The translations under genes were made by a program, and so were the position numbers. 64,000 bases of DNA. Source: Synergistaceae bacterium. Its GTDB lineage: Bacteria > Synergistota > Synergistia > Synergistales > Aminobacteriaceae. The DNA is taken from contig JAHDKT010000026.1 in NCBI GenBank assembly GCA_018436725.1, positions 1-64,000 on the forward strand, given 5' to 3'. The notes beneath the pieces are model-generated. The model saw nothing but the letters and a program-made list of their open reading frames with translations. It was not told the DNA's origin and ran no database searches. Positions 9,237 to 63,811 of the stretch are shown one piece after another. How positions within the stretch are numbered: the first letter of the stretch is position 1; the number at the start of each line of letters is the position of its first letter.

Positions 9237-9276
9237 TTCATCAATAGGGTTCAAAAAAGTTACAAAAACGAAACTC

Positions 9277-48758: not shown

Positions 48759-48789
48759 ACGCACCACCCCTTTTTTCTTCCGAACATAG

Positions 48790-49045
48790 AAAAAAGGAGG
48801 AGACCGCCGGAATACGGTCCCCTCCTTCCGCAAGTACAGGCTTCCGGAAAAAGCGAAAAGACCGCCTCTCACCCGCGTGATCGACGAAAAAACAGGCTTT
48901 CGGCAGGTCTTCCGACTCTCGGTCATCCTACTCCCGCGTCTTCCCGCCCGAGGGCAGTGACGTCGTGCGGTTTCGTCCCGATTACGGCGGCGGGGCCGTT
49001 CCGGTTTCGCACCGGATTCCCTTCTCCGAAATCCTTCGATATTCG
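48790..49045 (-). ncRNA. cobalamin (B12) riboswitch with terminator expression platform, leader of btuB
   Basis: Minus-strand leader reads AGGGAATCCGGTGCGAAACCGGAACGGCCCCGCC...CGTCACTGCCCTCGGGCGGGAAG...GGAAGACCTGCCG. These parallel the E. coli btuB leader blocks (AGGGAATCCAGTGCGAATCTGG...ACACTGCCATTCGGTGGGAAG...GAAGACCTGCCG) and the B12-box. A ggagg(g)gaccg/cggtctcctcc hairpin plus TTTTTT follows at 48790-48830. Confidence 0.7.
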
Positions 49046-49089
49046 GTTGCGTTTCGCCGGGCTGCACGCTTTCCCCGGCCGTCCGGCGG

Positions 49090-49842
49090 TCAACGCAGAC
49101 GAAAAACAATGCTCGCCCGAGCGCGTATCTCTCCCGGAGCATCGAACGTCCAGAGCTTCGCCGCGTTCACCGCCGCCTCGTCCAGCCTGGAGAATCCGCT
49201 GCTCGTCGAAACCGCGACATCCACAGTCCGCCCCGAACGTATGGTCAGCAACAGATGCACAACGCCCTCTTCTTTTCGCCTTCGCGAGAAGAGAGGATAT
49301 TCCGGAGCGGTTCTCGACAGAATCCGGAGCGTCTCCACATCCACGGGCTCCCCGCGCACGCCCCCCGTCGTGGAGATCGCGCCCGCTCCGCTCCGCGCTT
49401 CCGTCTTCGTCCCGGCCGCCGTTTCGGAGGAGAGCGCGTCCGCTCCCGGACGGGGGGCGCCGGAGAGAGGCTCGTCAAGCGTTTTCTTCGGCTGCGCGCG
49501 CGGAGGTTGCTCCGGCTCGCTCTTCGCCTTCGGCGCGGCGGCTTTTTTCGCCCCGCCGCTCCGTGCGGGCTTCTTCTCCGATTTCGAAGGGAGAACGGCG
49601 GCCGGCTGCTCCTTTTGCGTCGTCTTCTCCTCTTTCTTCACCGGACGAACACTCTCGGGCGCTGGATCAGCCTTCGGGATCGGGAGCGCTTCCGCGGAAC
49701 CTTCCGAAATACGCGGAGCTCCATGGAGCACGACGCGGAACACTTCCGGCGGGTCCGCGTGCTCGACGTCGACCCCCGGCAACAGAAAGAGGAGCGAGTG
49801 GAGCGCGAGACTTACGCTCAGAGCGGCGATCCACCTTCTCAT
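49090..49842 (-). CDS. tonB: energy transducer TonB
   Basis: N-terminal TM anchor, Pro/Lys/Glu-rich spacer, C-terminal TonB domain (RILSRTAPEYPLFSRRRKEEGVVHLLLTI...). Start overlaps the exbD stop. Confidence 0.7.
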   Translation of the reverse strand: MRRWIAALSVSLALHSLLFLLPGVDVEHADPPEVFRVVLHGAPRISEGSAEALPIPKADPAPESVRPVKKEEKTTQKEQPAAVLPSKSEKKPARSGGAKKAAAPKAKSEPEQPPRAQPKKTLDEPLSGAPRPGADALSSETAAGTKTEARSGAGAISTTGGVRGEPVDVETLRILSRTAPEYPLFSRRRKEEGVVHLLLTIRSGRTVDVAVSTSSGFSRLDEAAVNAAKLWTFDAPGEIRARASIVFRLR

Positions 49843-50225
49843 CGAGCGCCGTCTCCTTGCAGGGCGAGCCCCGTCGAAACGATCCCCTCGCGTCGAAGCA
49901 CGTCCAGCACCTCCGCGACCACGCCGTACGGCGCTTCGCGATCTCCCGCCAACAGAATATCCCGCCGCGCCGCCGCGGCCGCCGCCGCGAGAGGAGCGAG
50001 CTCTTCCATTCGCGTCTCCCTGTCGCCCCAGAGCACGCTCCCGTCCTTCCTCACCGTGAGCAGAAGGGCGTTCTCCTCCGTTTTTGCAACGGCTTCGCCG
50101 ACCGGAAGATCCACCTCGATGCGCCCCTGAAGAAAGTTCGCGGTCAGGACGAAGAAGATGATCAGCATGAAGAGCACGTCGATCAGCGGCGTGATATCAA
50201 GCTCCGGCCGACGACGGCGTCTCAT
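49839..50225 (-). CDS. exbD: biopolymer transport protein ExbD/TolR
   Basis: 128 aa. Single TM (ITPLIDVLFMLIIFFVL), then a periplasmic domain. Confidence 0.8.
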   Translation of the reverse strand: MRRRRRPELDITPLIDVLFMLIIFFVLTANFLQGRIEVDLPVGEAVAKTEENALLLTVRKDGSVLWGDRETRMEELAPLAAAAAAARRDILLAGDREAPYGVVAEVLDVLRREGIVSTGLALQGDGAR

Positions 50226-50860
50226 GGCGCGCCCTTCCCTCGGAGGCCGGCGTTCGCCGGAGCCGGGAAACGCTCCCGGATCAAAAAGTCCGCGCCCCTC
50301 CTGAGACACTCCTCCTGGGAGTCGACGCGGCTGGACAGAAAGCCGTGGAGGAAGAGCGCGGGAATGGCGACGGAGAGCCCCGCGACGGTCGTAAAGAGCG
50401 CCTTCCAGATTCCGCCCGTCACCGCCGTAGCGGTGATCCGCCCTCCGGAATGCAGCCCGGCGAACATCTCCATCATGCCGAGCACCGTGCCCAGCAGCCC
50501 CAGAAGCGGCGCGATCCTCCCCGTCATCTCCAGAAAGAGCAGGCGCTTCTCCCACCGGTAGACCTCGCGGCGAACCTCCTGCTCCACCAGCACGCCCATC
50601 CCCTCGCGGTCGACGTCCCAGTGGGTCAGCGCGGCCTGAAAGATACGGTGCAGCGAGCTGTTCGAAGCGAAGACGACTCCGCGGGCGTCCTCCGCTCTCC
50701 CCGATGCGCACGCGGCCGCGAACTCCGCCTCCAGTCGCTCGGGGTTCGTTGAAGCCCGCCGGAAGAAAAGCAGCCGCTCCACGATCACGGCGACCGCCGC
50801 CACGGAGAGAGCGGCCAGCACCCACATCAAAAAACCTCCGGCCTCGAAGTACGACAGCAT
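50222..50860 (-). CDS. exbB: MotA/TolQ/ExbB proton channel
   Basis: Start at MLSYFEAGG preceded by GGAGG (alternative ATG at 50875). Three TM helices with the conserved TxxxGLxGTVxGM motif. Confidence 0.8.
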   Translation of the reverse strand: MLSYFEAGGFLMWVLAALSVAAVAVIVERLLFFRRASTNPERLEAEFAAACASGRAEDARGVVFASNSSLHRIFQAALTHWDVDREGMGVLVEQEVRREVYRWEKRLLFLEMTGRIAPLLGLLGTVLGMMEMFAGLHSGGRITATAVTGGIWKALFTTVAGLSVAIPALFLHGFLSSRVDSQEECLRRGADFLIRERFPAPANAGLRGKGAP

Positions 50861-50883
50861 GGTCCCCACCTCCATTGCGTTCT

Positions 50884-51861
50884 CTACCTTCTCTTCCTCA
50901 GCAGCAGCCAGAGGAAGAAAAACGATCCGATGCTCGACGTGAGCGCGCCCACCGGAATCTCCGCCGGCGCCCAGAGCGTCCGGGCGGCGGTGTCGCACAG
51001 CACGAGAAAACCTCCTCCGAAGAGCAGCGAGGCTCCGCACAGCCGGGAGTGGTCCGACCCCACCAGAGATCGGCAGATATGAGGAACCATGAGCCCGACG
51101 AATCCGATAGGGCCGCAGAGGGCCACGTTCACGCCGACGGCCAGCGAAACCGCCAGAAAGAGCAGACGCCGCATCCTCTCCGCGGGAACGCCTCTGCTCA
51201 AGGCGAGTTCCTCGCCGCAGACGAAAAGATTCAACTCCCGCGAGCACAGGCGCGCCGTGCAGAATATCAGGAGCAGTCCGGGCAGAGCCGCGCGCACCGA
51301 GTCGAACCCCGCGGTCTGGATGCCCCCCATCGACCACCGCATGATTCTGAAGGTGTCGACGTATCCGCCGCCGTACTGCACGATCATGTTCAGGCTGCCG
51401 AAGAGAAAGCTGATCGCGATTCCCGCCAGCAGCAGCGTTCCCTCCGACATCCCCCCTCCGCGCAGCGTGCCCGCGGCGTAGATGACGGCCGTCGCGAGCA
51501 TCGCTCCCAGAAACGCGGATGTGGAAAGGGCCGAGAACAGTCCGAAGACGGTGAAGGAGAAGCCGAAGCGTATGGAGAGCACCGCGCCGAACGCCGCTCC
51601 CGTGGACACGCCCAGCATATCGGGAGAAGCCAGATCGTTGCGGAAGAGCGCCTGAAACACCATGCCGCAGAGGGAGAGCGTCGCTCCGGTGATCCACCCA
51701 AGGAGCACCCGCGGAAGGCGCAGCTCCCAGAAGATGCGCCCGCCGTTGCCGCCGCTCCGCAAAATGTCTTCCCAAGAGACGGAGTGCATCCCGACGAACG
51801 GAGCGACGGCGACGCAGAGCAGCGAGAAGAGCAGAACGGCGGGCAAAGCGAAGCGCTTCAT
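50884..51861 (-). CDS. btuC: FecCD/BtuC-family ABC permease (cobalamin/iron-chelate type)
   Basis: About 325 aa, 10 TM helices. Overlaps the upstream ATPase gene by 4 nt. Confidence 0.85.
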   Translation of the reverse strand: MKRFALPAVLLFSLLCVAVAPFVGMHSVSWEDILRSGGNGGRIFWELRLPRVLLGWITGATLSLCGMVFQALFRNDLASPDMLGVSTGAAFGAVLSIRFGFSFTVFGLFSALSTSAFLGAMLATAVIYAAGTLRGGGMSEGTLLLAGIAISFLFGSLNMIVQYGGGYVDTFRIMRWSMGGIQTAGFDSVRAALPGLLLIFCTARLCSRELNLFVCGEELALSRGVPAERMRRLLFLAVSLAVGVNVALCGPIGFVGLMVPHICRSLVGSDHSRLCGASLLFGGGFLVLCDTAARTLWAPAEIPVGALTSSIGSFFFLWLLLRKRR

Positions 51862-52646
51862 AACACCAGACCTCGCGGGGCGACGTACGGAACGCGCACC
51901 CCGTCTCCGCCGAAGGAGTGAAACTCGGTGTCGAAGATCTCGCGGAGCAGTCCGGCGTCCAAAAAGTCGTCCGTCGCGCCATCCCGGAGAACTCCGCCCC
52001 CTTTCAACGCGAGCACCCTGTCCGCGCTCCGCAGCGCCAGGTTGATATCGTGCGTCACCATGAGCACCGTGATTCCCCTCTCGCGATTGACGCGCTCCAC
52101 AAGAGCGGTCATCTCCACCTGACAGCGGTAGTCCAGAAACGACGTCGGTTCGTCCAGAAAAAGCATATCCGTCGTCTGCACGAGCGCCGCGGCAAGCAGC
52201 GCCTTTTGTCGTTCGCCGCCGCTCAGCAGATGCACGGGGCGATCCTGCAGCCCCTCCAGCTCCGTCAGACGGAAGGCGTTGGCGAGGATTTCGCGGTCGT
52301 CGACGCTCTCTCCGGAAAACGCCGACTTCCACGGATAACGCGAAAGAAGCAGAAACTCCCGCACCGTGAACGGAAGCGAATCGGTCCCCGACTGGGGGAT
52401 CCACGCGATGCGTCTGGCGATCCGACGCCGGGAGAGCCCCTCCATCGGACGCCCTTCGAGCAGCACCGTTCCCGACGATGGGCGCCGCAACCCGCCGAGA
52501 CACTTGAGAAGACTGGTCTTCCCCGCCCCGTTGGGACCCACGATCGCAAGAAACTCGCCTCGCCGCACCGAGAACGAAACCCCGTCGAGAGTTCGCGTCC
52601 CTCCAAGAACGAGGCCGAGAGCGCGGGCCTCCAGAAGAGGCGTCAT
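51858..52646 (-). CDS. btuD: ABC transporter ATP-binding protein (BtuD/FecE-like)
   Basis: Walker A GPNGAGKTS, signature LSGGERQ, Walker B LFLDEPT, H-loop. Confidence 0.85.
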   Translation of the reverse strand: MTPLLEARALGLVLGGTRTLDGVSFSVRRGEFLAIVGPNGAGKTSLLKCLGGLRRPSSGTVLLEGRPMEGLSRRRIARRIAWIPQSGTDSLPFTVREFLLLSRYPWKSAFSGESVDDREILANAFRLTELEGLQDRPVHLLSGGERQKALLAAALVQTTDMLFLDEPTSFLDYRCQVEMTALVERVNRERGITVLMVTHDINLALRSADRVLALKGGGVLRDGATDDFLDAGLLREIFDTEFHSFGGDGVRVPYVAPRGLVL

Positions 52647-53563
52647 GGAATCCACTCGATCTCCGGATGAAGAATTTCCGCGAAGGCGCGCAGAATCCGC
52701 CCTATTCTCGGCCCCGGACGGAGAAAGAGCGTCCCTTCCAGAATATGCACCCGCCCCTCCGTTACCGCGGGAACCTTCGCGCTCTCCGTCCACTGCCGCA
52801 CAAGACGCTCTCGGTCGAAAACATATTCGGCGTCGACCGGCTCCATCGAGTGGTAGAAGTTCCTGTCGCCGATCAAATCGACGATCACCTCCGGATTCAG
52901 CGAGAACAACCCTTCGACGGAGAGCAGCGGATAGTCCGCGCCGCCCGGCCCCACCGCGTTCGCGCCGCCCGCGAGTTCGATCAGCTCGTTGTAGAACGTA
53001 GCTCTCCCGGCCGCGTAAAAAGAGGTGATACGCGGCTCCGAAAGCTCCCTGGAAACGGCGAGCAACACCCGGGGACGGCTCGCCGTCGCGGCGACCTTCT
53101 CCGCGAGAGCGGCGATCTCCGCGCGCATCTTCCCGATCAACGCCGCGGCCGCCGCCTCTTCGCCGCACGCGCGGCCCAGCGCCTCGACCGAGAGAAGCAC
53201 CTCCTCCACCGAATTCTGCTTCAGCAGCACGTACGGAATCCCCAACCGCTCGATCTGCGGAAGGAACTGGAGATGAAGATCCTGAAAGACGATCAGGTCC
53301 GTTTCCGCGGCGAGAAGAGCTTCGAGATTGAGCGCGGCGAATCCTCCCAACCGCGGCTTCGTTCGCGCCTCCGGAGGCGTGTCGCAGAAATCGGTGACGC
53401 CGACGAGCCGATCTCCCAGTCCCAATGCGAAAAGGAACTCCGTCCCCACCGGAGAGAGCGACACGATCCGACGCAGCGCCCCCGACAGGGACGTCGCGAA
53501 AAAGAACACGAAAAGCAGCGCAAGGAGCGCTCCTCCCGTTCGAACTTTAAACCACGCTCGCAT
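52643..53563 (-). CDS. btuF: periplasmic substrate-binding protein, class III (BtuF-like cobalamin binding)
   Basis: Signal peptide. Two-lobed class III SBP pattern (IVSLSPVGTEFLFALGLGDRLVGVTDF...). RBS GGGGGAGG. First gene of the operon under the second riboswitch. Confidence 0.75.
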   Translation of the reverse strand: MRAWFKVRTGGALLALLFVFFFATSLSGALRRIVSLSPVGTEFLFALGLGDRLVGVTDFCDTPPEARTKPRLGGFAALNLEALLAAETDLIVFQDLHLQFLPQIERLGIPYVLLKQNSVEEVLLSVEALGRACGEEAAAAALIGKMRAEIAALAEKVAATASRPRVLLAVSRELSEPRITSFYAAGRATFYNELIELAGGANAVGPGGADYPLLSVEGLFSLNPEVIVDLIGDRNFYHSMEPVDAEYVFDRERLVRQWTESAKVPAVTEGRVHILEGTLFLRPGPRIGRILRAFAEILHPEIEWIP

Positions 53564-53584
53564 CACGGCATTCCTCCCCCAAAA

Positions 53585-53775
53585 AAAGAGGAGACCGCAC
53601 GGGCCTCCTCGAATAAACACCAACCTACAGGGTGATACATGCCCGCGCACAACACCCGTGCGCTCTCCGTGATTTTCTGGCTTCCGAAAAAATTTTCGGT
53701 TACAGTGGCGGGGCCGCTCCGGACTTGCACCGGATTACTCCGCGGAGAACGCGTATTCAATTGCATTGAATTCTA
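53585..53775 (-). ncRNA. second cobalamin riboswitch with terminator, leader of btuFDC-exbBD-tonB
   Basis: Minus-strand leader contains AATCCGGTGCAAGTCCGGAGCGGCCCCGCCACTGTAACCG....CGGAAGCCAG (B12 box GCCACTG). A gaggaggcc...cggtctcctc hairpin plus TTTTTTT lies just before the RBS. Confidence 0.65.
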
Positions 53776-53949
53776 GGCCTTCTTACTTCGCGCGTCAACT
53801 GCGAAGAAGACCACGCGGTCGAAAAACAGAAAGGAGCGGTGCTCTTTTCTGTCGAATTTTCACCTAAAGCCGCCGATGATTCTCGGTCGTTTCGACTTGA
53901 AATATGCTACGATAGAAAACAAAACCACGCCGAGGAAGGATCATTCCCG

Positions 53950-55476
53950 ATGAGCAAAAAGCACCTCACGAACGGAAACGGAGCTTCAGTCGGCCTCGAT
54001 ATCGCGTCGCTTTCGGGGCATCTCTGGGAGTCCGCCAACATCCTGCGCGGCGCGGTGGACGCAGCCGACTTCAAGACGTACATCTTTCCGCTGCTCTTCT
54101 TCAAACGCATTTCGGACGTCTTCGACGAAGAGTACGCCGCCGCCATGGAGAAATCCGGCGGCGACGAGGAGTTCGCCGGGTTTCCCGAAAACTACCGCTT
54201 CCAGGTGCCGGAGGGGTGTCACTGGAAGGATGTCCGCGCCCGGAGCGAGAATATCGGGCACGCCCTGCAAAAAGCCATGCGCTGCATCGAGCAGGCCAAC
54301 CCCGAGACGCTGCACGGCATCTTCGGCGACGCCCAATGGACGAACAAAGAGCGCCTCCCCGACCCCCTTCTCAAGGATCTGATCGAGCACTTCTCCTCCC
54401 TCGACATGGGAAACGTCCGCTGCAGGGCCGACGTTCTCGGGCAGGCCTACGAATACCTGATCAAGAAGTTCGCCGACCTCGCCAACAAAAAGGCCGGAGA
54501 ATTCTACACCCCCCGCCCCGTCGTCTCTCTGATGGTGCGCATCCTCTCGCCGGAAGCGGGGGAAACCGTCTACGACCCCGCGTGCGGAACCGGCGGAATG
54601 CTTCTCGAAGCGCTGCACCACGTCAAGGAACGCGGCGGCGACGAAAACCTCATGCTGGGCAAGCTCTACGGGCAGGAGAAGAACCTGACCACCAGCGCCA
54701 TCGCGCGGATGAACCTCTTTCTTCACGGCGCGGAGGACTTCCATATCGCCCGCGGCGACACCCTCAGAAATCCGGCGTTCTACTCCGGAGACAGCCTCGC
54801 CGCCTTCGACTGCGTCATCGCCAATCCTCCCTTCTCCCTCGAAAAATGGGGAGAGGACGTCTGGATCAACGACCCGTACGGGCGCAACTTCGCGGGGCTT
54901 CCACCCGCCTCCACAGGAGACTTCGCATGGGTGCAGCACATGATCAAGTCCATGGCCCTCAAGAGCGGCCGCATGGCCGTCGTCCTTCCTCACGGCGTCC
55001 TCTTCCGCATGTCCAGAGAAGGAGCCATCCGGCGCGCGCTGCTGGAAATGGACCTTCTCGACGCCGTGATCGGCCTCGGACAGAACATCTTCTACGGAAC
55101 CGGGCTCGCCCCCTGCATCCTGGTCTTCCGCCACAGAAAGAAAGAAGAGCGCCGAGGCAGGGTGCTCTTCATCGACGCCTCCAAGGAGTACAAGACGGGC
55201 CGGGCCCAGAACGAACTGCTGCCCGAGCACGTCGAAAACATTCACCGCCTGTACGAGGAGTATCGGGATGTCGAAGGGCTCTGCCGGGTTGCCGAACTCG
55301 CCGAAATCCGCGAGAGCGACTTCAACCTGAACATCCCCCGCTACGTGGAGCCGCTGATCGAAGAGGAGACCGTCACTCTCGAGGAGGCCGTCGCCGGTCT
55401 CAAGGAGTCCCTTGCCGCCGCGTACGCCGCCGAGGACCGTCTGAAAGAGCTGCTGACCATGGAGGGAATGCTGTGA
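53950..55476 (+). CDS. hsdM: Type I restriction-modification DNA methyltransferase subunit M (copy 1)
   Basis: 508 aa. N-terminal HsdM N domain. AdoMet motif (DPACGTGGML). Catalytic NPPF. C-terminal helical HsdM tail. Confidence 0.9.
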   Translation: MSKKHLTNGNGASVGLDIASLSGHLWESANILRGAVDAADFKTYIFPLLFFKRISDVFDEEYAAAMEKSGGDEEFAGFPENYRFQVPEGCHWKDVRARSENIGHALQKAMRCIEQANPETLHGIFGDAQWTNKERLPDPLLKDLIEHFSSLDMGNVRCRADVLGQAYEYLIKKFADLANKKAGEFYTPRPVVSLMVRILSPEAGETVYDPACGTGGMLLEALHHVKERGGDENLMLGKLYGQEKNLTTSAIARMNLFLHGAEDFHIARGDTLRNPAFYSGDSLAAFDCVIANPPFSLEKWGEDVWINDPYGRNFAGLPPASTGDFAWVQHMIKSMALKSGRMAVVLPHGVLFRMSREGAIRRALLEMDLLDAVIGLGQNIFYGTGLAPCILVFRHRKKEERRGRVLFIDASKEYKTGRAQNELLPEHVENIHRLYEEYRDVEGLCRVAELAEIRESDFNLNIPRYVEPLIEEETVTLEEAVAGLKESLAAAYAAEDRLKELLTMEGML

Positions 55477-57014
55477 AGAAGAGCCGACCCATCACGCACG
55501 CCGAACTCGAATCCTACCTCTGGGGAGCGGCCGTACTGCTGCGCGGCTATATCGACGCGGGCGACTACAAGCAGTTCATCTTCCCGCTGCTCTTCTACAA
55601 GAGGCTGTGCGACGTCTACGACGAAGAGCTGGCCGAAGCGCTGGAGACGTCCGGCGGCGACATCGAGTACGCCTCGCTTCCGGAGCAGCACCGCTTCCAG
55701 ATCCCCGAAGGCGCGCACTGGAACGACGTCCGCACCGAGGTCCGCAACGTCTGAAAGGCTATTCAGAACGCTCTCCGCGCCATCGAAAAAGCGAACCCGG
55801 ACACGCTCTTCGGGGTCTTCGGCGACGCCCAATGGACCAACAAGGACCGCCTTCCGGACCACATGCTCCGCGAACTGATCGAGCACTTCAGCTCCCGGAC
55901 GCTCTCCATCGCCAACTGCCCCGAGGACGAACTCGGCACAGGGTACGAATTCCTGATCAAGAAGTTCGCCGACGACTCCGGACACACCGCAGCGGAGTTC
56001 TACACCAACCGCACCGTGGTCCACCTGATGACCGAGATGCTCGAACCGCTCTCCGGAGAATCCATCTACGACCCCACCTGCGGATCGGCCGGAATGCTCC
56101 TCTCGGCCGTCGCGTACCTTAAGCGCCGGCGGAAGGAGTGGCGGAACCTGCGCCTCTTCGGCCAGGAGAAGAACCTCCTGACCTCCGCCATCGGCAGAAT
56201 GAACCTCTTCCTGCACGGCGTCAAGGACTTCAGCGTCGTTCGGGGCGACACCCTGACGAACCCCGCCTTCGTCGAGGGCGACCGACTCATGCGGTTCGAC
56301 GTGGTGCTCGCCAATCCGCCCTACTCCATCAAACAGTGGGACCGCGACGCATGGAGCGCCGATCCGTGGGGGCGGAACATCTACGGCGCCCCGCCGCAGG
56401 GGCGCGCCGACTACGCCTTCTGGCAGCATATCGTCCGGAGCATGAAGCCCGACACCGGCCGCTGCGCCATCCTCTTTCCGCACGGCGTGCTCTTCCGCGA
56501 CGAAGAAGCCGCCATGCGCGAAAAGCTGATCGACCACGACGTGCTGGAGTGCGTGCTCGGCCTCGGGCCGAACCTCTTCTACAACTCCCCCATGGAGGCC
56601 TGCGTCGTGATCTGCCGCATGAACAAACCGCCGGAGCGAAGAGGCAGGGTCCTCTTCATCAACGCGGTGAACGAAGTCGCCCGCGAACGAGCGCAGAGCT
56701 TCCTGAGCGAAGAGCACATCGAAAAGATCGTCGAGGCCTACCGGACGTACGAGAATCGCGAGGGGTTCGCCCGCGTGGCCGAAAACGGCGAGATTCGGGC
56801 CAACGGCGGCAAACTCAGCCTTCCGCTCTATGTGCGAGGCGCCGACGGAAACGGCAACGGAGCGGGCGAACGCGTCGGCCTCAAGCAGTCGATAGCGGAG
56901 TGGCTGGAAAGCTCCGCCGCCCTGCGGGAGTCGATGGACGAGCTTTTCGCTCTGCTTGAAGAGCAGACGCGACCGGACGACGGCGAATTTGCGAAAGGAG
57001 GACGTCTGCGATGA
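55473..57014 (+). pseudogene. hsdM: Type I R-M methyltransferase subunit M paralog (copy 2) with in-frame TGA at 55752-55754
   Basis: GTG start overlapping the hsdM1 stop, preceded by GGAGGG. About 50% identical to copy 1 along its full length (DPTCGSAGML, NPPYS). A single TGA replaces the Gly aligned to hsdM1 ...SENIGHALQKA (VRNV*KAIQNALRA). Confidence 0.65.
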
Positions 57015-58186
57015 GCGCGCGATCCCTGAAGCCCGGCTGGAGGATGGTCACGTTCGGGGATGTCGTGAAGAACGTGAACATGGTCGAGCGCGATCCCGTA
57101 TCCAAAGGTATCGAGCGGATCGTCGGACTGGAGCACATCGACCCGGAGAATCTGCATATTCGGCGATGGAGTTCCGTTGAAGAGGGAACGTCCTTTACTC
57201 GTAAATTCGTCCCCGGCCAGACTCTTTTCGGGAAGCGGCGCGCCTATCAGCGGAAAGTCGCCTTTGCCGAGTTCGAAGGCATCTGCTCCGGCGATATTCT
57301 GACCTTCGAACCGAAGAGCACGGACGCGCTGCTGCCAGAACTGCTGCCTTTCATATGTCAGACCGACGCCTTCTTCGAGCACGCGCTCAACACCTCGGCG
57401 GGTTCTCTTTCTCCAAGGACCAGTTGGTCGGCGTTGCAGGGCTTCCAATTCCCGCTGCCGCCGCTCGATGAGCAGAAGCGCATCGCCGAAATCCTGTGGG
57501 CGGCGGATGAGGCGGTGGAAGCGTATACCATTGCCTACAATAAGCTTGTCAAGTTGTCCGAGGCGATTGTTGAGTGCGATATTTGTTCAATGTTGTACCC
57601 TTGGCAGCCACTTGGCTCTGTATTAACGGCCATTCTGGCTGGGAAAAGTGTTGTTGGAAGCACTATGCCAGCTAAGCCTAATGAATACGGTGTCCTTAAA
57701 GTTAGCGCTGTTGGGGCAACAGGATTTAAACCTGATGAGAACAAACGCCTTCTTAGATCTGAAGATTTTTTACACCGATATAGAATTAATAATGGCGCCC
57801 TGTTAATAACTAGATGTAATACAACTGCTCTTGTGGGTAGAGTTTGCATTGTGCAAAGCGACTTTCATCACTTGATGTTATGCGATAAAACGTTACAACT
57901 TATTCTAGATGAAAATATAGTTAATATTCGGTTTGTTTATGAAGCTTTGCGTTCTCATCGTGTAAGAACTCAAATTGCTGGACTTGCCACTGGCACAGGT
58001 GGCGCTATGAAAAATCTTTCTCAACAAGATCTTCGTTCACTTTTAATTCCATTGCCATCCAAAGAAAGTCAAAATATAGCCATACACAAAGTTTCTCAAA
58101 TCGCGAAGCAAAAAGATATTATCTCCGGATGGATCGCTAGATTGGTTGATTTGAAAAAGCAGGTTACGAGGACGCTAATATGCTGA
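57011..58186 (+). CDS. hsdS: Type I R-M specificity subunit S
   Basis: 391 aa. Two target-recognition domains separated by a conserved central helix (PPLDEQKRIAEIL). Start overlaps the hsdM2 stop. Sharp GC drop after about 57540 (TRD2). Confidence 0.85.
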   Translation: MSARSLKPGWRMVTFGDVVKNVNMVERDPVSKGIERIVGLEHIDPENLHIRRWSSVEEGTSFTRKFVPGQTLFGKRRAYQRKVAFAEFEGICSGDILTFEPKSTDALLPELLPFICQTDAFFEHALNTSAGSLSPRTSWSALQGFQFPLPPLDEQKRIAEILWAADEAVEAYTIAYNKLVKLSEAIVECDICSMLYPWQPLGSVLTAILAGKSVVGSTMPAKPNEYGVLKVSAVGATGFKPDENKRLLRSEDFLHRYRINNGALLITRCNTTALVGRVCIVQSDFHHLMLCDKTLQLILDENIVNIRFVYEALRSHRVRTQIAGLATGTGGAMKNLSQQDLRSLLIPLPSKESQNIAIHKVSQIAKQKDIISGWIARLVDLKKQVTRTLIC

Positions 58187-58289
58187 TATAAAATGATTTC
58201 TTAATAATTCTACATTTTATTGTTTTTTTAATTTTTTGCTTAAATCAAAGCGTGGTTGCTGGATATTTTATATACAGGGAGGTTCTCAA

Positions 58290-60866
58290 ATGGCGTTTAA
58301 AATCCCCGCAAAGCTACTAGTGTCCATCGCAGACCCGGAATCGTTGTTCCGTGACCTGAGGGATCGGGCGGTAGAAGGCCTTCTTGCTCAGCAGGCAGAC
58401 ATGCTTCGAAAATACATGGAGCATGTTGATGCGCATGATATTGCGCTTGAGCTACCTACCGGCAGCGGGAAAACCTTAGTTGGTCTTCTTATAGCAGAAT
58501 GGCGCAGAAGAACAAGGCAGGAAAGATGTCTACTACTTTCCCCAACTAAACAACTCGTCCATCAGATCTTCGAACAGGCCAAAGGGAAGTATGGAATTAA
58601 TACACTCGATTTTTCCGGCTCCAAGCATAACTACACAGCACCCGATAAATCCGCATTTAAAAACTGTGAAGCTATAGGCATTGCCACATATAGCGCCTTT
58701 TTCAACACAAATACTTTTTTTAGTGATGCTCATACGCTTATTTTTGATGATGCACACGCTGCTGAGACTTATGTGTCAAACTTGTGGTCTTTGGAAATAC
58801 ATCGTTCTAAAGATGAAATGATATTTAACGCTATCTGGAAAATAATCGAGCCCTATACAACAGAAAACGAGCAACTCTGTTATGACCAAGACACTGATGG
58901 GGGGATTGATACTTCGTTTGTCAATAAGATTCCCACTCCTTATTTTCTAGAATGCAAGACCGCGCTGGCGATTGTATTGAATGATGCGTCCAGAAGAGGT
59001 GAAAAATATGAGGAGTACAGCTACCGATGGCTTATGATTAAAGACCACCTTCATGCATGTCACCTCTATTACACCAGTAATTCAATTCTTATTCGTCCTC
59101 TTATACCACCTACAAAGAGCTTTAAGCCTTTCCTAGATGCGAATCAGCGCATTTATATGTCAGCCACTCTCGGGGAAGGTGGAGATCTTGAACGAATATT
59201 CGGCCGGAAAACAATTACACGGATTCCCGCCCCAGATGGATGGGACAAGCAGGGAATCGGCAGGCGTTTTTTTGTCTTTCCTATGCGAAAATGGGATGAT
59301 AAAGATTCATTAAATTTTGCACTTTCTTGGATCTCTAAATTTGATAGAGTTCTTGTGCTTACTCAAAGCAATCGAGATGCAGAGATAGTAAAGCAGTCTA
59401 TTAAACAAATCGAAGCTCTAAAGAATCATTCGATTTTCGATGCTACGGAACTGGAGCTATCTAAGAAGATTTTCACTCAGAAGGACTCCGCTATCGCGAT
59501 TTTGGCGAATAGGTATGACGGAATCGATCTAATCGGAGACGAATGTAGATACTTGATAGTCTATGGCCTTCCAGAATCAACAAATCTCCAAGAACGTTTT
59601 ATCATCAGTCGATTAGGGGCATCTGTTCTTTTTGATGTACGCATCCGTACTAGAATAACCCAAGCTGTAGGACGATGCACCCGCTCATCAAGTGATTATG
59701 CGCTTGTAGTGGTCATTGGCGAGAAAGCGAATCAATATTTTCACATGCCAGAAAAAAGAGCGGTTTTGCATCCGGAACTTCAAGCAGAAGTAAATTTTGG
59801 CATTGAGCAGTCAATAGTTGGAGATGTCTGTGAACTAGAGGATAATATTAATTCATTTATCATGCATGATTCTGAGTGGAAATCCGCTGATAATTATATA
59901 TTAGAAACAAGAGACAAATTAAAACAATTACCGATATCTTCAGCAAGCCAGCTTGGGAAAGCAGTCGTTAGTGAAGTTGCATTTAATGATGCGCTTTGGT
60001 TTGGGAAGTTTGACGTTGCTCTCTCATCAGCAAAAGATGTGCTTGCCTGCCTTGCAGGTGGACATGAACTGAAGGGCTATTCCGCTCTCTGGAATTACCT
60101 CGCAGGTTCCGCAGCGTATCAAGAAGAGGAAAAGGATATAGCAAAGGAGCATTTCTCTGCGGCGTTTTCATGTGTTAGCACATTGCCATGGCTTAGGCAA
60201 ATTCAGAAGTTGACTTCTAACCGATTGCCACAAACACCAATGATTATTATGCATGAAGCACGTATTGAGCGCATAGAGCACATACTTGAAAAGTTTGGAA
60301 AAATAAATAGTGTTAAAATAGAGAGGTATTTTAACTCAATCAGAGATGGGCTTTCAAGCACTCAATCACAACCTTTTGAAGAAGCTCAAGTTAAAATTGG
60401 ACTGCTTTTAGGGTTTATAGCTGGAAAAACCGAAAATTCAGGCGATCCAGATCCATGGTGGATAATAGGTAAAGAAGGCATTGTTTTTGAAGACTACACT
60501 GCAACGGGAGAGAAGCCAATTATTTCTAAAGAGAAAACATTGCAAGCAAAGGCCCATCCTGATACCCTTAAAAAAACGCATCCTCATGTAAATTTCAGCG
60601 TTGTATTATGCTCTACATCAAGGACATTACATTATGCCGCAGAACCTCATACAGAAGGCGTTTATTTCATTCATAAAGATGAGTTTTGTGAGTTCTCTGA
60701 ACAATGTTTTAAGCTCATCCGTAGTCTTTGGGATACATTTCAATCATCTGGAAATATGCGTTGGCGAGAGGATGCCGCGGAAAAAATACATTCAGCCGGA
60801 TTAGAAAACGAAGACATCTTGTCATTTTTGAGAAATACACAGCTTGCTTCATTAGTGAAAGGTTAA
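58290..60866 (+). CDS. SF2 (Rad3/DinG/DEAH-like motifs) helicase-family protein with about 390-aa C-terminal domain of unknown function, embedded in the Type I R-M operon
   Basis: Start at MAFKIP with GGGAGG RBS. Walker A LPTGSGKT (about aa 55). Motif II FDDAH (about aa 165). Motif III MSATL (about aa 313). Motif VI QAVGRCTRS (about aa 483). The C-terminal half has no recognisable family. About 40% GC versus about 65% for hsdM and hsdR. Confidence 0.65.
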   Translation: MAFKIPAKLLVSIADPESLFRDLRDRAVEGLLAQQADMLRKYMEHVDAHDIALELPTGSGKTLVGLLIAEWRRRTRQERCLLLSPTKQLVHQIFEQAKGKYGINTLDFSGSKHNYTAPDKSAFKNCEAIGIATYSAFFNTNTFFSDAHTLIFDDAHAAETYVSNLWSLEIHRSKDEMIFNAIWKIIEPYTTENEQLCYDQDTDGGIDTSFVNKIPTPYFLECKTALAIVLNDASRRGEKYEEYSYRWLMIKDHLHACHLYYTSNSILIRPLIPPTKSFKPFLDANQRIYMSATLGEGGDLERIFGRKTITRIPAPDGWDKQGIGRRFFVFPMRKWDDKDSLNFALSWISKFDRVLVLTQSNRDAEIVKQSIKQIEALKNHSIFDATELELSKKIFTQKDSAIAILANRYDGIDLIGDECRYLIVYGLPESTNLQERFIISRLGASVLFDVRIRTRITQAVGRCTRSSSDYALVVVIGEKANQYFHMPEKRAVLHPELQAEVNFGIEQSIVGDVCELEDNINSFIMHDSEWKSADNYILETRDKLKQLPISSASQLGKAVVSEVAFNDALWFGKFDVALSSAKDVLACLAGGHELKGYSALWNYLAGSAAYQEEEKDIAKEHFSAAFSCVSTLPWLRQIQKLTSNRLPQTPMIIMHEARIERIEHILEKFGKINSVKIERYFNSIRDGLSSTQSQPFEEAQVKIGLLLGFIAGKTENSGDPDPWWIIGKEGIVFEDYTATGEKPIISKEKTLQAKAHPDTLKKTHPHVNFSVVLCSTSRTLHYAAEPHTEGVYFIHKDEFCEFSEQCFKLIRSLWDTFQSSGNMRWREDAAEKIHSAGLENEDILSFLRNTQLASLVKG

Positions 60867-60877
60867 TAGGGCCGCCC

Positions 60878-63811
60878 ATGTTTAACGAAGAAAACACCGT
60901 CGAGCAGTTGATTCTCGATGCGCTTCGCGGCGGAGCGTCTTACAGCAGAGTCGCGGGGCGGAGCGGCGGCTCGGGAGAGTGGCGCTTCATCCCCTCCGAC
61001 GAGCTGCGGCGCTCCTCCTCCGACGTGCTGGTGGAGCCGATGCTCTACGATGCCCTCCTTCGCCTCAACCCGGAGATCGAAGCGCAGCCGAATCGCGCGG
61101 ACGAGGTGCTCTACCGATTGCGCGCCATTCCCCTTTCGGTGCAAAGCGAGGGGCTTGTCCGCTCCAACGAGCTGTTTGCGGAGTGGCTCCGCGGCGAGAA
61201 GTCCATGCCCTTCGGCGAACGCGGCGAACATACCCCCGTCCGCCTGATCGACTTCGAAGACCTCTCCAACAACGAGTACGTGGTCACGAATCAGTGGGTC
61301 TATCCCGTCAAGGAAGGGGGAAAGCGCTTCGACATCGTCCTTCTGGTCAACGGAATACCGCTCGTGATCGGCGAGGCGAAGACGCCGGTGCGCCCCGCCG
61401 TGACATGGATCGACGGCGCCTCCGACATCCACGACGCCTACGAAAAGAGCGTGCCGCAGATGTTCGTTCCCAATGTCTTTTCCTTCGCCACCGAGGGAAA
61501 GCGCTTCCGCTACGGCACGGTTCGGATGCCGCTCGATATCTGGGGCCCGTGGCACGACGGCGACAAGTCCGAGGGCAGCCTGGCGGACGTGCGGCGCTCC
61601 GCCCGTTCGATGCTCCGTCCTTCGGTCGTTCTGGACCTCCTGCGGAACTTCACGCTCTTCGCCACGGACAAAAGACACAGCCGCATCAAGATCATCGGCC
61701 GCTATCAGCAGTACGAGGCCGCCAACCTTATCGTCGAGCGCGTGGTCCGGGGCTCCCCGAAGAAGGGGCTGATCTGGCACTTTCAAGGTTCGGGGAAGTC
61801 GCTCCTGATGGTCTTCGCGGCGCAGAAGCTGCGGATGCACCGCGAGCTGGGCAACCCCACGGTGATGATCGTGGTGGACAGGATCGACCTCGACACCCAG
61901 ATCACCGCCACCTTCAACGCCGCCGACATTCCGAACATGATCGGAGCCTCCGCCCGGAACGAGCTTCACGACCTGCTGGCCGCGGACACGCGCAAGATCA
62001 TCATCACCACCATTCACAAGTTCGCCGAGACGGGCGGACGGCTGAACGAGCGTTCGAACATCATCGTGATGGTGGACGAGGCGCACCGCACCCAGGAGGG
62101 CGACCTCGGACGCAGGATGCGCGAGGCCCTCCCCAACGCCTTTCTCTTCGGCCTGACCGGAACGCCGATCAACAAGCGGGACAGGAACACCTTCTGGGCA
62201 TTCGGCGCGGAGGAGGACGAACAGGGGTACATGAGCCGCTACTCCTTTCAGGACTCCATCCGGGACAAGGCCACGCTCCCGCTGCATTTCGAGGCGGTGG
62301 ACGTCAAGCTGCACATCGACAGGGTAGCCATCGACGAAGCCTACGCACGCATGACCGACCAACTGAGCGAAGAAGACCGCGACGACCTCGCGAAGCGCGC
62401 CGCGAAGATGGCGGTGCTCATCAAGGCCCCGGAACGGGTGAACGCGATCTGCCGGCATATCGTCGGACACTTCGCGGAGAAGGTGGAGCCGAACGGCTTC
62501 AAGGCGCAGGTGGTCACGTTCGACCGGGAGTGCTGCGTGCTGTACAAGAGGGCGATGGACGAGCTGATCGGGCCGGACGCAAGCGCCGTCGTGATGAGCA
62601 CGCAGGGCGGCAAAGCCGATAATTACGCCGGGTGGAAGCTGGGGAAAGACGAGGAGGAGCGTCTTCTCGACCGCTTCCGCGATCCGAACGATCCGCTCAA
62701 GTTCCTGATCGTCACTTCCAAGCTGCTGACCGGGTTCGACGCCCCCATCCTGCAGACGATGTATCTGGACAAGCCGATGAAGGACCACAGTCTTCTGCAG
62801 GCCATCTGCCGGACGAACCGCGTCTACTCCGGCAAGACGCACGGCCTGATCGTGGATTACCTGGGCATCTTCGACGACGTGGCGAACGCCCTCGACTTCG
62901 ACGAAAAGTCCGTCCAGCGAGTTGTGACCAATCTCGAAGAGGTCAAGGCGGAACTTCCCGGAATCGTGGAGCGCTGCCTCGCCTTCTTCCCGGGAACGGA
63001 CCGTTCCGTCGGCGGGTACGAGGGGCTGATCGCCGCGCAGGACTGTCTGCCGAACAACGAAATCAAGGACAGGTTCGCCGCCGAATTCTCGGTGCTCTCC
63101 AGGCTCTGGGAGGCACTCTCCCCGGACCCCGTACTCGCTCCGTTCGAGAAGGACTACAAGTGGCTGACGCAAGTTTACGAATCGGTAAAGCCCCTGAGCG
63201 GCAAAGGCAAGCTGCTCTGGCACGCGCTCGGGGCCAAGACCATCGAACTGGCCCACAGGAACGTCCATCTGGAGACGGTGCGCGACGACCTCGAAACGCT
63301 TGTGATGGACGCGGATATTCTGGAGGAGTTCCTGAAGAACAAGAAGGGGAAGGAGAAAGAGATCGAGATCAAGCTCATCGCGCGGCTTCGGAAGCACAGG
63401 GGCAATCCGAAGTTCATCGCGCTCGGCGAGCGGCTCGAAAAGCTGAAGGAGCGGCACGAACAGGGACTGCTCAACAGCCTGGAGTTTTTGAAGGAGCTGC
63501 TCGCTCTGGCGAAGGAGGTCGTGCAGGCCGAGAAGGAAGTCGACCCCGTCGAGGAGCGGAAGGATGCCAAGGCCGCCCTCTCCGAACTGTTCGCCGAGGT
63601 GAAAAACGTGAACACCCCGGTGATGGTGGAGCGCATCGTGAACGACATCGACCAGATCGTGCGGGTGGTCCGCTTCCCTGGATGGCAGGACACCACCGAG
63701 GGAAAGCGCGAAATCCAGAAGGCTCTGCGCGAGCTGCTCTACGTCAAGTACAAGATCAAAGACGCGGACCTCTTCGAGAGGGCGTTCCAGTACATCAGGC
63801 AGTATTACTGA
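60878..63811 (+). CDS. hsdR: Type I R-M restriction subunit R (HsdR)
   Basis: Start at MFNEENTVEQ. N-terminal nuclease domain (DIVLLVNGIPLVIGEAK = PD-(D/E)xK). Walker A GSGKS, DEAH (VMVDEAHRTQ), helicase C motifs (TGFDAP...QAICRTNR). About 977 aa. Confidence 0.9.
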   Translation: MFNEENTVEQLILDALRGGASYSRVAGRSGGSGEWRFIPSDELRRSSSDVLVEPMLYDALLRLNPEIEAQPNRADEVLYRLRAIPLSVQSEGLVRSNELFAEWLRGEKSMPFGERGEHTPVRLIDFEDLSNNEYVVTNQWVYPVKEGGKRFDIVLLVNGIPLVIGEAKTPVRPAVTWIDGASDIHDAYEKSVPQMFVPNVFSFATEGKRFRYGTVRMPLDIWGPWHDGDKSEGSLADVRRSARSMLRPSVVLDLLRNFTLFATDKRHSRIKIIGRYQQYEAANLIVERVVRGSPKKGLIWHFQGSGKSLLMVFAAQKLRMHRELGNPTVMIVVDRIDLDTQITATFNAADIPNMIGASARNELHDLLAADTRKIIITTIHKFAETGGRLNERSNIIVMVDEAHRTQEGDLGRRMREALPNAFLFGLTGTPINKRDRNTFWAFGAEEDEQGYMSRYSFQDSIRDKATLPLHFEAVDVKLHIDRVAIDEAYARMTDQLSEEDRDDLAKRAAKMAVLIKAPERVNAICRHIVGHFAEKVEPNGFKAQVVTFDRECCVLYKRAMDELIGPDASAVVMSTQGGKADNYAGWKLGKDEEERLLDRFRDPNDPLKFLIVTSKLLTGFDAPILQTMYLDKPMKDHSLLQAICRTNRVYSGKTHGLIVDYLGIFDDVANALDFDEKSVQRVVTNLEEVKAELPGIVERCLAFFPGTDRSVGGYEGLIAAQDCLPNNEIKDRFAAEFSVLSRLWEALSPDPVLAPFEKDYKWLTQVYESVKPLSGKGKLLWHALGAKTIELAHRNVHLETVRDDLETLVMDADILEEFLKNKKGKEKEIEIKLIARLRKHRGNPKFIALGERLEKLKERHEQGLLNSLEFLKELLALAKEVVQAEKEVDPVEERKDAKAALSELFAEVKNVNTPVMVERIVNDIDQIVRVVRFPGWQDTTEGKREIQKALRELLYVKYKIKDADLFERAFQYIRQYY

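What the first reader, a model, noticed from the sequence alone, without database searches (positions are those of the whole stretch)
53950..57014. Two tandem hsdM paralogs; the second is interrupted by one in-frame TGA at a conserved glycine
Type I systems normally carry one hsdM. Here two roughly 50%-identical full-length M genes are translationally coupled (GTG of copy 2 overlaps the stop of copy 1). Copy 2 is the one coupled to hsdS (ATGA overlap). Copy 2 is intact except for a single TGA (55752-55754) where the alignment with copy 1 demands Gly. This is either a recent inactivation, a phase-variable or read-through-regulated methyltransferase, or a sequencing error. If copy 2 is dead the system must use the uncoupled copy 1. 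If it is read through, the locus makes two different M subunits.
Basis: seen in the sequence. Interest (0 to 1): 0.6.

Follow-up and report, generated by a model that had tools for sequence, protein, structure and literature searches.

The report
Known two-methylase restriction system, one broken
The two tandem hsdM genes are the normal M1/M2 pair of an already described Type I restriction-modification family that makes m6A on one DNA strand and m4C on the other, and the TGA is a strain-specific single-base nonsense mutation in the m4C methylase, so the locus is an ordinary, recently broken copy.

Summary
hsdM1 (53950-55476) and hsdM2 (55473-57014) are 51% identical. They overlap at GTGA, hsdM2 overlaps hsdS at ATGA, and hsdM2 has one in-frame TGA (55752-55754, codon 94).

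The two-M layout is not unusual. It defines the m4C/m6A 'non-canonical' Type I family (Morgan et al. 2016; PacII M1M2S structure, Zhu et al. 2022). M1 best matches PacII M1 (7vru_A, E 4e-179) and M2 best matches PacII M2 (7vru_B, E 3e-193). Every published marker is present: AGEF and NPPF in M1; AAEF, NPPY and NSPME in M2; order M1-M2-S-R; a PacII-like TRD1. In 79 of 80 related genome loci, from many bacterial phyla and from archaea, an M1-type gene sits just upstream of the M2-type gene.

The TGA replaces GGA. Gly94 is invariant in 109 M2 homologues, and three 98-99% identical relatives have GGA. An independent assembly (Logan SRR13787013) is 100% identical over 11.1 kb and carries the TGA, so an assembly error is unlikely. 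I found no SECIS-like fold, no repeat tract and no recoding of TGA.

The most likely reading is a recent loss-of-function allele in an Aminivibrio-like strain. Close relatives carry other lesions in the same system. Interest is low.

The parts
53950..55476 (+). hsdM1, the M1 subunit (predicted m6A methyltransferase), intact, 508 aa. AGEF at nt 54493-54504 and NPPF at nt 54823-54834.
   Evidence: Pfam HsdM_N + N6_Mtase. Best solved-structure match is PacII M1, 7vru_A, E 4.4e-179. Motif positions. 99% identical to the M1 of L001.
55473..57014 (+). hsdM2, the M2 subunit (predicted m4C methyltransferase), 513 codons, interrupted at codon 94. AAEF at nt 55989-56000, NPPY at nt 56313-56324, NSPME loop at nt 56583-56597.
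   Evidence: Translation. Best solved-structure match is PacII M2, 7vru_B, E 3.2e-193. 99% identical to intact P0001. Motif positions.
55752..55754 (+). In-frame TGA, a nonsense codon replacing the invariant Gly94 (GGA) of M2.
   Evidence: The window has TGA where L001, L002 and L084 have GGA, a single G>T change. Gly94 is invariant in 109 homologues. The TGA is reproduced in the independent Logan contig L085, which is 100% identical over 11,123 bp.
57011..58186 (+). hsdS, the specificity subunit, 391 aa, intact. Its N-terminal TRD1 is of the conserved PacII-like (cytosine half-site) type. It has its own strong Shine-Dalgarno sequence (AAAGGAGGA).
   Evidence: Pfam Methylase_S. PADLOC Specificity_I, E 7e-119. 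Residues 1-188 align to S.PacII 7vru_C residues 1-186 at 125 bits. Upstream sequence.
58290..60866 (+). Accessory 858-aa DinG-like helicase gene in a roughly 40% GC stretch, lying between hsdS and hsdR. It matches PADLOC phage-defence candidate PDC-S28. It is not a core part of the R-M system.
   Evidence: Pfam DEAD/ResIII/Helicase_C_2. PADLOC PDC-S28, E 5e-109. GC 0.41. The same gene, about 72% identical, sits in the same position in L007, L008, L009, L016, L040 and L052. It is absent from L001, L002 and L084.
60878..63811 (+). hsdR, the restriction/translocase subunit, 977 aa, intact.
   Evidence: Pfam HSDR_N, SWI2_SNF2, T1R_D3-like and ResIII. NCBIfam hsdR at 512 bits. 98% identical to the HsdR of L001.

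Best explanation
The locus is a member of the known m4C/m6A ('non-canonical', PacII-like) Type I restriction-modification family.

In that family a heterotrimeric M1-M2-S methyltransferase puts m6A on one strand (M1, NPPF) and m4C on the other strand (M2, NPPY) of a bipartite site, and HsdR restricts unmodified DNA. The two hsdM genes are therefore the normal subunit pair, not a duplication peculiar to this genome.

In this strain, probably an Aminivibrio-like Synergistota, a single G>T substitution turned the invariant Gly94 codon of M2 (GGA) into TGA. Translation should stop after 93 residues, inside the N-terminal domain.

Published reconstitution shows that M1 binds S first and then recruits M2, and that M1+S alone gives only partial m6A and no m4C. 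From that I infer three consequences:
- The strain has lost m4C modification.
- It most likely has lost restriction as well, because the closed M1M2S clamp that HsdR needs cannot form.
- Nonsense polarity may lower expression of the downstream S, helicase and R genes.

The rest of the operon is intact and hsdM2 shows no extra decay, so the event is recent.

Shown: family membership at sequence level, the nature of the mutation, and its presence in two assemblies. Inferred: the r-/m4C- phenotype and the polarity effect.
For: **Family membership**
- M1 and M2 give reciprocal best matches to PacII M1 and M2 (7vru_A, E 4e-179; 7vru_B, E 3e-193).
- M1 and M2 are 51% identical to each other. The published range is 45-55%.
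- AGEF and NPPF are in M1; AAEF, NPPY and NSPME are in M2. These are the markers listed.
- Gene order is M1-M2-S-R with M2 next to S, as.
- S TRD1 is homologous to S.PacII TRD1.
- In 79 of 80 genome loci an M1-type gene (67-84% identical) lies upstream of the M2-type gene.

**The mutation**
- Three close relatives have GGA at the site.
- Gly94 is invariant in 109 of 109 homologues.
- Of the 12 members of the 90% cluster, only this one is truncated.
- L085, an independent Logan assembly of SRR13787013, is 100% identical and carries the TGA, with 93-aa and 383-aa ORFs called.

**Recency**
- hsdM2 against L001 has 10 synonymous and 6 non-synonymous codon differences besides the stop. hsdM1 has 15 and 5, and hsdR has 43 and 17.

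**Expected consequences**
- Published single-subunit data.

**Background of lesions in this family**
- In the 80 genome loci, 3 M2 genes are disrupted and 9 M1 genes were flagged as disrupted, of which two (L004, L028) sit at contig starts and are probably just cut off.
- Within this lineage there are three other lesions: an M1 frameshift in L002, an M1-R fusion deletion in P0125, and a 41-aa deletion in hsdS in L083.
Against: - I could not see reads. L085 may come from the same read set as the window's assembly, so a library-level artefact or a minority variant fixed by consensus is not excluded.
- No methylome or expression data exist for this strain, so the r-/m4C- phenotype is inferred from heterologous experiments on four other systems.
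- Whether HsdR can act with M1+S alone has not been tested in the literature I read.
- A second M2 gene elsewhere in the genome cannot be excluded from a 64-kb window. None is present in the window itself.
Confidence: 0.8

Rival explanations
1. Sequencing or assembly error: the true codon is GGA and hsdM2 is intact.
For: It is a single-base difference from relatives that all have GGA. The gene shows no other sign of decay.
Against: An independent assembly by a different pipeline (Logan, SRR13787013, a 23.6-kb contig) is 100% identical over 11,123 bp and has the same TGA and the same split ORFs. The 383-aa fragment is recorded from both NCBI and Logan sources. The site is not in a homopolymer or repeat.
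Confidence: 0.1
2. Recoding: the TGA is decoded, either as selenocysteine, as Gly or Trp by a variant genetic code or suppressor tRNA, or by programmed read-through. Full-length M2 would then be made, possibly at a regulated low level.
For: The frame is fully open apart from the TGA. Low-level UGA read-through occurs in bacteria generally (my own knowledge, not tested here).
Against: - The 79 nt from the TGA onward fold no better than shuffled sequence (z +1.1; 178 of 200 shuffles fold at least as well), and no Rfam element lies at the site.
- The downstream sequence is almost the same in strains with GGA (1-2 differences in the 58 nt after the codon), so nothing there evolved for recoding.
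- TGA ends about 20 of 51 likely genes in the window, including hsdM1, hsdM2 and hsdR.
- My scan found no other interrupted gene.
- There is no tRNA in the window.
- Only 1 of the 12 near-identical M2 sequences has the stop.
Confidence: 0.03
3. Phase-variable ON/OFF switch of the methyltransferase.
For: Type I systems in some bacteria are phase-variable through repeats or hsdS shuffling (titles retrieved).
Against: The change is a base substitution. No homopolymer of 6 or more bases and no simple-sequence repeat lies at or near 55752. The only tandem-repeat rows are weak two-copy 12-21-nt matches. There is no inverted hsdS copy in the window.
Confidence: 0.01
4. The lesion leaves a working system. 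Either re-initiation at ATG 55863 gives a 383-aa M2 without its N-terminal domain that still joins M1 and S through its C-terminal tail, or M1+S(+R) works as an m6A-only system.
For: The C-terminal tail that anchors M2 in the four-helix bundle is retained in the 383-aa ORF. M1+S alone gave 36-80% m6A detection in four systems.
Against: - ATG 55863 lies 37 codons downstream of the TGA, with no Shine-Dalgarno sequence upstream.
- The missing residues 1-130 include the M1-M2 interface positions whose mutation lowered methylation in PacII (D33/D36/K38, R130).
- M1 with S forms only a 1:1 heterodimer.
- Partial hemi-methylation together with an active HsdR would be self-destructive.
Confidence: 0.06

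Closest known systems
PacII and the other characterised m4C/m6A two-methyltransferase Type I R-M systems, such as DbaKI, BceNI, Mma5219I and Apa12260I (Morgan et al. 2016, PMC5100572; PacII M1M2S crystal structures 7VRU/7VS4, Zhu et al. 2022, PMC9613975)
   Same: - Two M genes about 50% identical to each other.
- M1 upstream with AGEF and NPPF; M2 downstream, next to S, with AAEF, NPPY and the NSPME loop.
- hsdR lies downstream, and an accessory ORF can sit between S and R.
- TRD1 of S is homologous to S.PacII TRD1.
- M1 and M2 give reciprocal best matches to PacII M1 and M2.
   Different: - M2 carries a nonsense codon at Gly94.
- The S subunit has its own TRD2, so the recognition sequence is not known.
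- hsdM1 and hsdM2 overlap by 4 nt here, whereas 6 of the 10 characterised systems have ORFs between the two M genes.
- A PDC-S28 helicase gene lies between S and R.
- No methylome or activity data exist for this locus.
Canonical Type I R-M systems (EcoKI, EcoR124I): M2S1 methyltransferase and R2M2S1 nuclease
   Same: The same domain families (HsdM_N and N6_Mtase, Methylase_S, HSDR_N and SWI2/SNF2) and the same overall logic. In classical genetics, loss of HsdM gives an r- m- phenotype (my own knowledge).
   Different: Canonical systems use one M gene, whose product acts as a homodimer and makes m6A on both strands. Here there are two diverged M genes, each conserved as its own orthologous group across phyla.
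Degraded or inactivated R-M loci (pseudogenised methyltransferase or restriction genes in natural isolates)
   Same: A single point lesion in an otherwise intact operon. Related genomes show other lesions in the same family: nonsense codons in M2 of L029 and L041, frameshifts in M1 of several loci, and an M1-R fusion deletion in a close relative.
   Different: Nothing distinguishes this case.

Membership tests
m4C/m6A two-methyltransferase Type I R-M (PacII-like) | Two distinct M genes in one Type I locus, 45-55% identical to each other | tested here: met
   51% identity over 490 aa. Published range quoted.
m4C/m6A two-methyltransferase Type I R-M (PacII-like) | Upstream subunit M1 has NPPF in motif IV and AGEF in the catalytic pocket | tested here: met
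   AGEF at aa 182-185 and NPPF at aa 292-295 of M1. Criteria.
m4C/m6A two-methyltransferase Type I R-M (PacII-like) | Downstream subunit M2 has NPPY in motif IV, AAEF, and the conserved N-S-P-M-E loop | tested here: met
   AAEF at aa 173-176, NPPY at aa 281-284 and NSPME at aa 371-375 of M2. Criteria.
m4C/m6A two-methyltransferase Type I R-M (PacII-like) | Gene order M1, M2, S, R, with M2 next to S | tested here: met
   Coordinates. The same order is seen in L001 and L002 and in 79 of 80 genome loci.
m4C/m6A two-methyltransferase Type I R-M (PacII-like) | Each M groups with its own subfamily (M1 with M1s, M2 with M2s) rather than with its partner | tested here: met
   M1 scores 600 bits to 7vru_A and 482 bits to 7vru_B. 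M2 scores 646 bits to 7vru_B and 447 bits to 7vru_A. Across the loci, M1-type hits are 67-84% identical, against about 50% for the cross-comparison.
m4C/m6A two-methyltransferase Type I R-M (PacII-like) | S subunit carries the conserved cytosine-recognising TRD | tested here: met
   S residues 1-188 align to S.PacII residues 1-186 at 125 bits, while TRD2 does not align. Which half-site (CCC, GCC or TCY) it reads was not resolved.
m4C/m6A two-methyltransferase Type I R-M (PacII-like) | Bipartite motif with m4C on one strand and m6A on the other | not testable with these tools
   This needs a SMRT or nanopore methylome. With M2 truncated, the expectation is no m4C.
m4C/m6A two-methyltransferase Type I R-M (PacII-like) | M1M2S heterotrimer assembles and restriction depends on HsdR | not testable with these tools
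   Biochemistry only. For PacII it is shown in the literature, and restriction is shown for DbaKI and Apa12260I.
Canonical single-M Type I R-M | One hsdM gene whose product forms the M2S1 homodimeric core | tested here: not met
   Two diverged M genes are present, and each is conserved as a separate orthologous group.
Bacterial selenoprotein gene | A SECIS stem-loop immediately 3' of the in-frame UGA, with UGA or Cys at that position in orthologues | tested here: not met
   The fold is no better than shuffled sequence (z +1.1). Orthologues have an invariant Gly. Near-identical strains have GGA.
Alternative genetic code with UGA as a sense codon (tables 4 and 25) | UGA is not used as a stop, and in-frame UGA occurs in many genes | tested here: not met
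   TGA ends about 20 of 51 likely genes. The other same-frame junctions look like separate adjacent genes.
Phase-variable methyltransferase | A simple-sequence repeat or invertible element at the switch site | tested here: not met
   No repeat tract lies at 55752, and the change is a substitution.

The most novel reading that the evidence does not exclude
The M2-null allele may not be simple decay. It could be one of several recurrent, selected ways in which this Aminivibrio lineage switches off the m4C/m6A system, alongside the M1 frameshift, the M1-R fusion deletion and the S TRD1 deletion seen in close relatives. Under this reading, M1+S would remain as a partial, one-strand m6A methyltransferase with an epigenetic role rather than a defensive one.
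Probability: 0.08. Interest if true: 0.35.

Novelty: new member of a known kind. Interest (0 to 1): 0.1.

Why it matters
It matters little. For annotation, the two hsdM genes should be labelled M1 (m6A) and M2 (m4C) of a PacII-like Type I system, and hsdM2 should be flagged as a pseudogene in this strain. That predicts the strain lacks the m4C/m6A bipartite motif and is probably restriction-deficient for this system. The only mildly useful by-product is the picture of several independent lesions in one system within one lineage, which is a small natural data set on how heteromeric Type I systems get lost.

Tried and rejected
- **Selenocysteine or programmed read-through.** I folded the 79 nt from the TGA onward and found no structure beyond shuffled controls. 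An Rfam scan found nothing at the site.
- **Alternative genetic code.** TGA is a common stop in the window. A scan for other genes interrupted by a single stop found only adjacent separate genes. There is no tRNA in the window.
- **Phase variation.** No repeat or homopolymer lies at the site.
- **Independent evidence for the TGA by exact protein look-up.** Look-ups with the 383-aa fragment, hsdS, M1 and the 93-aa fragment found nothing on record. The helicase look-up gave a contig that starts downstream of the site. The hsdR look-up finally gave L085, which covers the site.
- **Allele count in JGI metagenomes.** A degenerate K (G or T) pattern gave a single contig, and it has GGA.
- **Relaxed selection on hsdM2.** Synonymous and non-synonymous counts are not distinguishable from those of hsdM1 and hsdR.
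- **Literature search for 'two hsdM'.** It returned only papers about two HsdM subunits of ordinary systems. The 'hsdM1 hsdM2' search led to the relevant papers.
- **A second M2 copy in the window.** None found.
Full report
**1. The observation**

The region holds two full-length hsdM genes on the + strand.
- hsdM1 runs from ATG 53950 to TGA 55474-55476 (508 aa).
- hsdM2 starts at GTG 55473, so start and stop overlap as GTGA, and ends at TGA 57012-57014 (513 codons).
- The hsdS ATG at 57011 overlaps that stop as ATGA.
- The two proteins are 51% identical over 490 residues, and both have the HsdM_N and N6_Mtase domains.
- hsdM2 has one in-frame stop, TGA at 55752-55754 (codon 94). It aligns with Gly in M1.

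**2. The rest of the locus**

Downstream lie three intact genes.
- hsdS at 57011-58186 (391 aa).
- An 858-aa helicase-like gene at 58290-60866, in a stretch of about 40% GC.
- hsdR at 60878-63811 (977 aa).

Upstream, on the other strand, is a cobalamin-riboswitch-led transport operon.

**3. The two-M layout is a known family**

A search of the two proteins against solved structures gave reciprocal best matches to the two methyltransferase chains of PDB 7VRU/7VS4.
- M1 matches 7vru_A (E 4.4e-179, 600 bits). Its score to chain B is 482 bits.
- M2 matches 7vru_B (E 3.2e-193, 646 bits). Its score to chain A is 447 bits.

7VRU is the PacII M1M2S methyltransferase (Zhu et al. 2022, PMC9613975). Morgan et al. 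(2016, PMC5100572) defined the family as Type I systems with two different M subunits forming a heterodimeric M1M2S enzyme. One strand gets m6A from M1 (NPPF). The other strand gets m4C from M2 (NPPY). The gene order is M1-M2-S-R, with M2 usually next to S. M1 and M2 are 45-55% identical. More than 300 such systems were listed in REBASE at the time. Further markers are AGEF in M1, AAEF in M2, and an N-S-P-M-E loop in M2.

The window has all of them.
- M1 has AGEF at aa 182-185 and NPPF at aa 292-295.
- M2 has AAEF at aa 173-176, NPPY at aa 281-284 and NSPME at aa 371-375.
- The N-terminal TRD of HsdS aligns with TRD1 of S.PacII over residues 1-188 at 125 bits, while the second TRD does not. 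This fits the published remark that the cytosine-recognising TRDs are unusually conserved.

**4. How widespread the layout is**

A scan of one genome per species with the M2 protein gave at least 555 related stretches. I examined the 80 best. They come from Thermodesulfobacteriota, Gammaproteobacteria, Chlorobiota, Planctomycetota, Acidobacteriota, Chloroflexota, Bacillota, Spirochaetota, Verrucomicrobiota and methanogenic archaea.

- In 79 of the 80 loci an M1-type gene lies just upstream of the M2-type gene. It is 67-84% identical to the window's M1 and only about 50% identical to M2. The one exception is a 2.6-kb contig with no room upstream.
- The distance between the two genes is 30 nt or less in 24 loci, 31-500 nt in 33, and more than 500 nt in 22. 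This agrees with the published note that extra ORFs often sit between the M genes.

**5. The TGA**

An intact 513-aa protein, P0001, is 99% identical to the conceptual M2 and has Gly at position 94.

- Three near-identical loci from other samples have GGA where the window has TGA, a single G>T change. L001 is 99.3% identical over 11.6 kb. L002 and L084 are about 98% identical.
- Gly94 is invariant in an alignment of 109 M2-type homologues of 74-81% identity.
- Among the 12 members of the 90%-identity cluster, only the window's sequence is truncated.

**6. Is it an artefact?**

An exact look-up with HsdR returned L085, a 23.6-kb contig from the Logan assembly of run SRR13787013. It is 100% identical to window 52878-64000 (11,123 bp, no mismatch). 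It carries the same TGA, with 93-aa and 383-aa ORFs called on either side. The deposited contig is 158.8 kb, so this is a different assembly.

It may rest on the same reads, so it does not prove an independent sample. It does make an assembler or polishing error unlikely. The site is not in a homopolymer or repeat. I put a real allele at about 0.8-0.85 and an error at about 0.1.

**7. Recoding and phase variation**

- The 79 nt from the TGA onward fold at -18.6 kcal/mol, against a shuffle mean of -22.2 (z +1.1). There is no SECIS-like element.
- Rfam finds nothing at the site.
- The downstream sequence is almost the same in the GGA strains, with one or two differences in the 58 nt after the codon.
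- TGA ends about 20 of 51 likely genes in the window, including hsdM1, hsdM2 and hsdR.
- The other same-frame ORF junctions are adjacent separate genes, each with its own start.
- There is no repeat tract that could drive phase variation.
- The first in-frame restart is ATG 55863, 37 codons downstream, with no Shine-Dalgarno sequence. Its product would lack residues 1-130. That stretch includes the positions at the M1-M2 interface whose mutation lowered PacII activity.

**8. Likely consequence (inferred)**

In four characterised systems, M2+S gave no modification and M1+S gave only partial m6A (36-80% of sites detected) with no m4C. For PacII, M1 binds S first as a 1:1 heterodimer and then recruits M2.

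A strain making only 93 residues of M2 should therefore lack m4C and have at best partial one-strand m6A. It should lack the closed M1M2S clamp on which HsdR acts, which would make it restriction-deficient for this system. A strain that kept restriction with partial protection would damage its own DNA.

hsdS has its own strong Shine-Dalgarno sequence (AAAGGAGGA). Even so, 1.26 kb of untranslated hsdM2 message could cause polarity on S, the helicase and R. This last point is inference from general knowledge.

**9. Age of the lesion and background rate**

Against L001, hsdM2 has 10 synonymous and 6 non-synonymous codon differences besides the stop. hsdM1 has 15 and 5, and hsdR has 43 and 17. There is no sign of relaxed constraint, so the lesion is recent.

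Lesions in this family are not rare in public assemblies.
- 3 of the 80 loci have a disrupted M2: nonsense codons at Y66 in L029 and at A483 in L041, and a frameshift in L055.
- The automatic survey flagged 9 M1 genes as disrupted. Two of these (L004, L028) begin at the very start of their contig and are probably just cut off, which leaves about 7. Many of these genomes are MAGs, so some lesions may be assembly errors.

Within this lineage I saw three further lesions.
- L002 has a 1-nt deletion in hsdM1.
- A relative encodes M1 residues 1-492 fused to HsdR residues 671-977, which means a deletion of M2, S and most of R.
- L083, which is 99.98-100% identical to the window, has a 123-bp in-frame deletion in TRD1 of hsdS.

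**10. Organism**

A neighbouring oxidoreductase (40108-42048) falls in a 90%-identity cluster that includes a protein named from Aminivibrio sp.. Aminivibrio is a genus of Synergistota, family Aminobacteriaceae. One of the ten characterised systems of the family, Apa12260I, is from Aminomonas paucivorans, which I recall also being a member of Synergistota (for the system; the taxonomy is my own knowledge).

**11. Verdict**

The arrangement is a textbook member of a family described in 2016 and solved structurally in 2022. The TGA is a strain-specific nonsense mutation, and much less likely an error. There is no evidence of recoding or switching. Novelty is limited to an uncharacterised specificity. 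Interest is low.

Noticed in passing
window 58290-60866 (+): An 858-aa DinG-like helicase gene sits in a roughly 40% GC stretch between hsdS and hsdR. It matches PADLOC phage-defence candidate PDC-S28 (E 5e-109). The same gene, about 72% identical, occupies the same S-R position in PacII-like loci of distant taxa (L007, L008, L009, L016, L040, L052). It is absent from the closest relatives L001, L002 and L084.
   Followed up: partly
L002:515-1822 (corresponds to window 54135-54166): A 98%-identical relative (Logan SRR19543046) has a 3-nt deletion and a 1-nt deletion in hsdM1. The result is a frameshifted M1, called as 399 aa, while its M2 is intact. This is the opposite lesion to the window's.
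   Followed up: partly
P0125 (NCBI, 33.5-kb contig), relative of window 53950-63811: An 805-aa protein made of M1 residues 1-492 (99% identical) fused to HsdR residues 671-977 (95% identical). It implies a deletion that removed M2, S and most of R in another strain of the lineage.
   Followed up: partly
L083:994-2046 (corresponds to window 57055-57176): A contig from run SRR7110664 is 99.98-100% identical to window 56018-62071 but has a 123-bp in-frame deletion (41 aa) in TRD1 of hsdS. A 350-aa S of this kind is also recorded from NCBI and JGI sources. The contig does not reach the TGA site.
   Followed up: partly
window 53628-53762 (-): There is an AdoCbl (cobalamin) riboswitch match at 48 bits, just below Rfam's gathering score of 50 (E 8e-7). 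It lies upstream of a minus-strand operon for a periplasmic binding protein, ABC ATPase, FecCD permease, ExbB/ExbD/TonB and a TonB-dependent receptor.
   Followed up: no
window 46776-57076 compared with L001: Divergence from L001 is uneven. Chromosomal genes at 46776-50860 differ in 0-2 codons each, while hsdM1, hsdM2 and hsdR differ in 17-60 codons each, and the rise begins around 51858. This suggests the R-M cassette was exchanged by recombination between strains. hsdS shares only its conserved central region with L001.
   Followed up: partly
window about 6000-9700: A low-GC island (about 46% against about 62% elsewhere) encodes a 625-aa MATE-type transporter with a C-terminal acetyltransferase-like extension, a 206-aa cytidylate-kinase-like protein and a MarR-type regulator. 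These function labels are my reading of the translations, not a domain search. Similar sequence flanks the island near 5.5 kb and 9.4 kb.
   Followed up: no
L085:11223-15323 (beyond the window's 3' end): Downstream of hsdR the same strain encodes a DUF6998 protein and a 1021-aa protein with weak AAA_21 and faint SMC_N Pfam hits. The R-M system may therefore sit in a larger defence island.
   Followed up: no
one search hits P0015, P0039, P0040, P0050, P0060, P0072, P0078 and others: Many M2-type homologues are about 700 aa rather than about 500 aa. This is probably the M2 with an extra C-terminal TRD, or an M2-S fusion, as noted for M2.PcaI and M2.Dac11109IV by Morgan et al..
   Followed up: no
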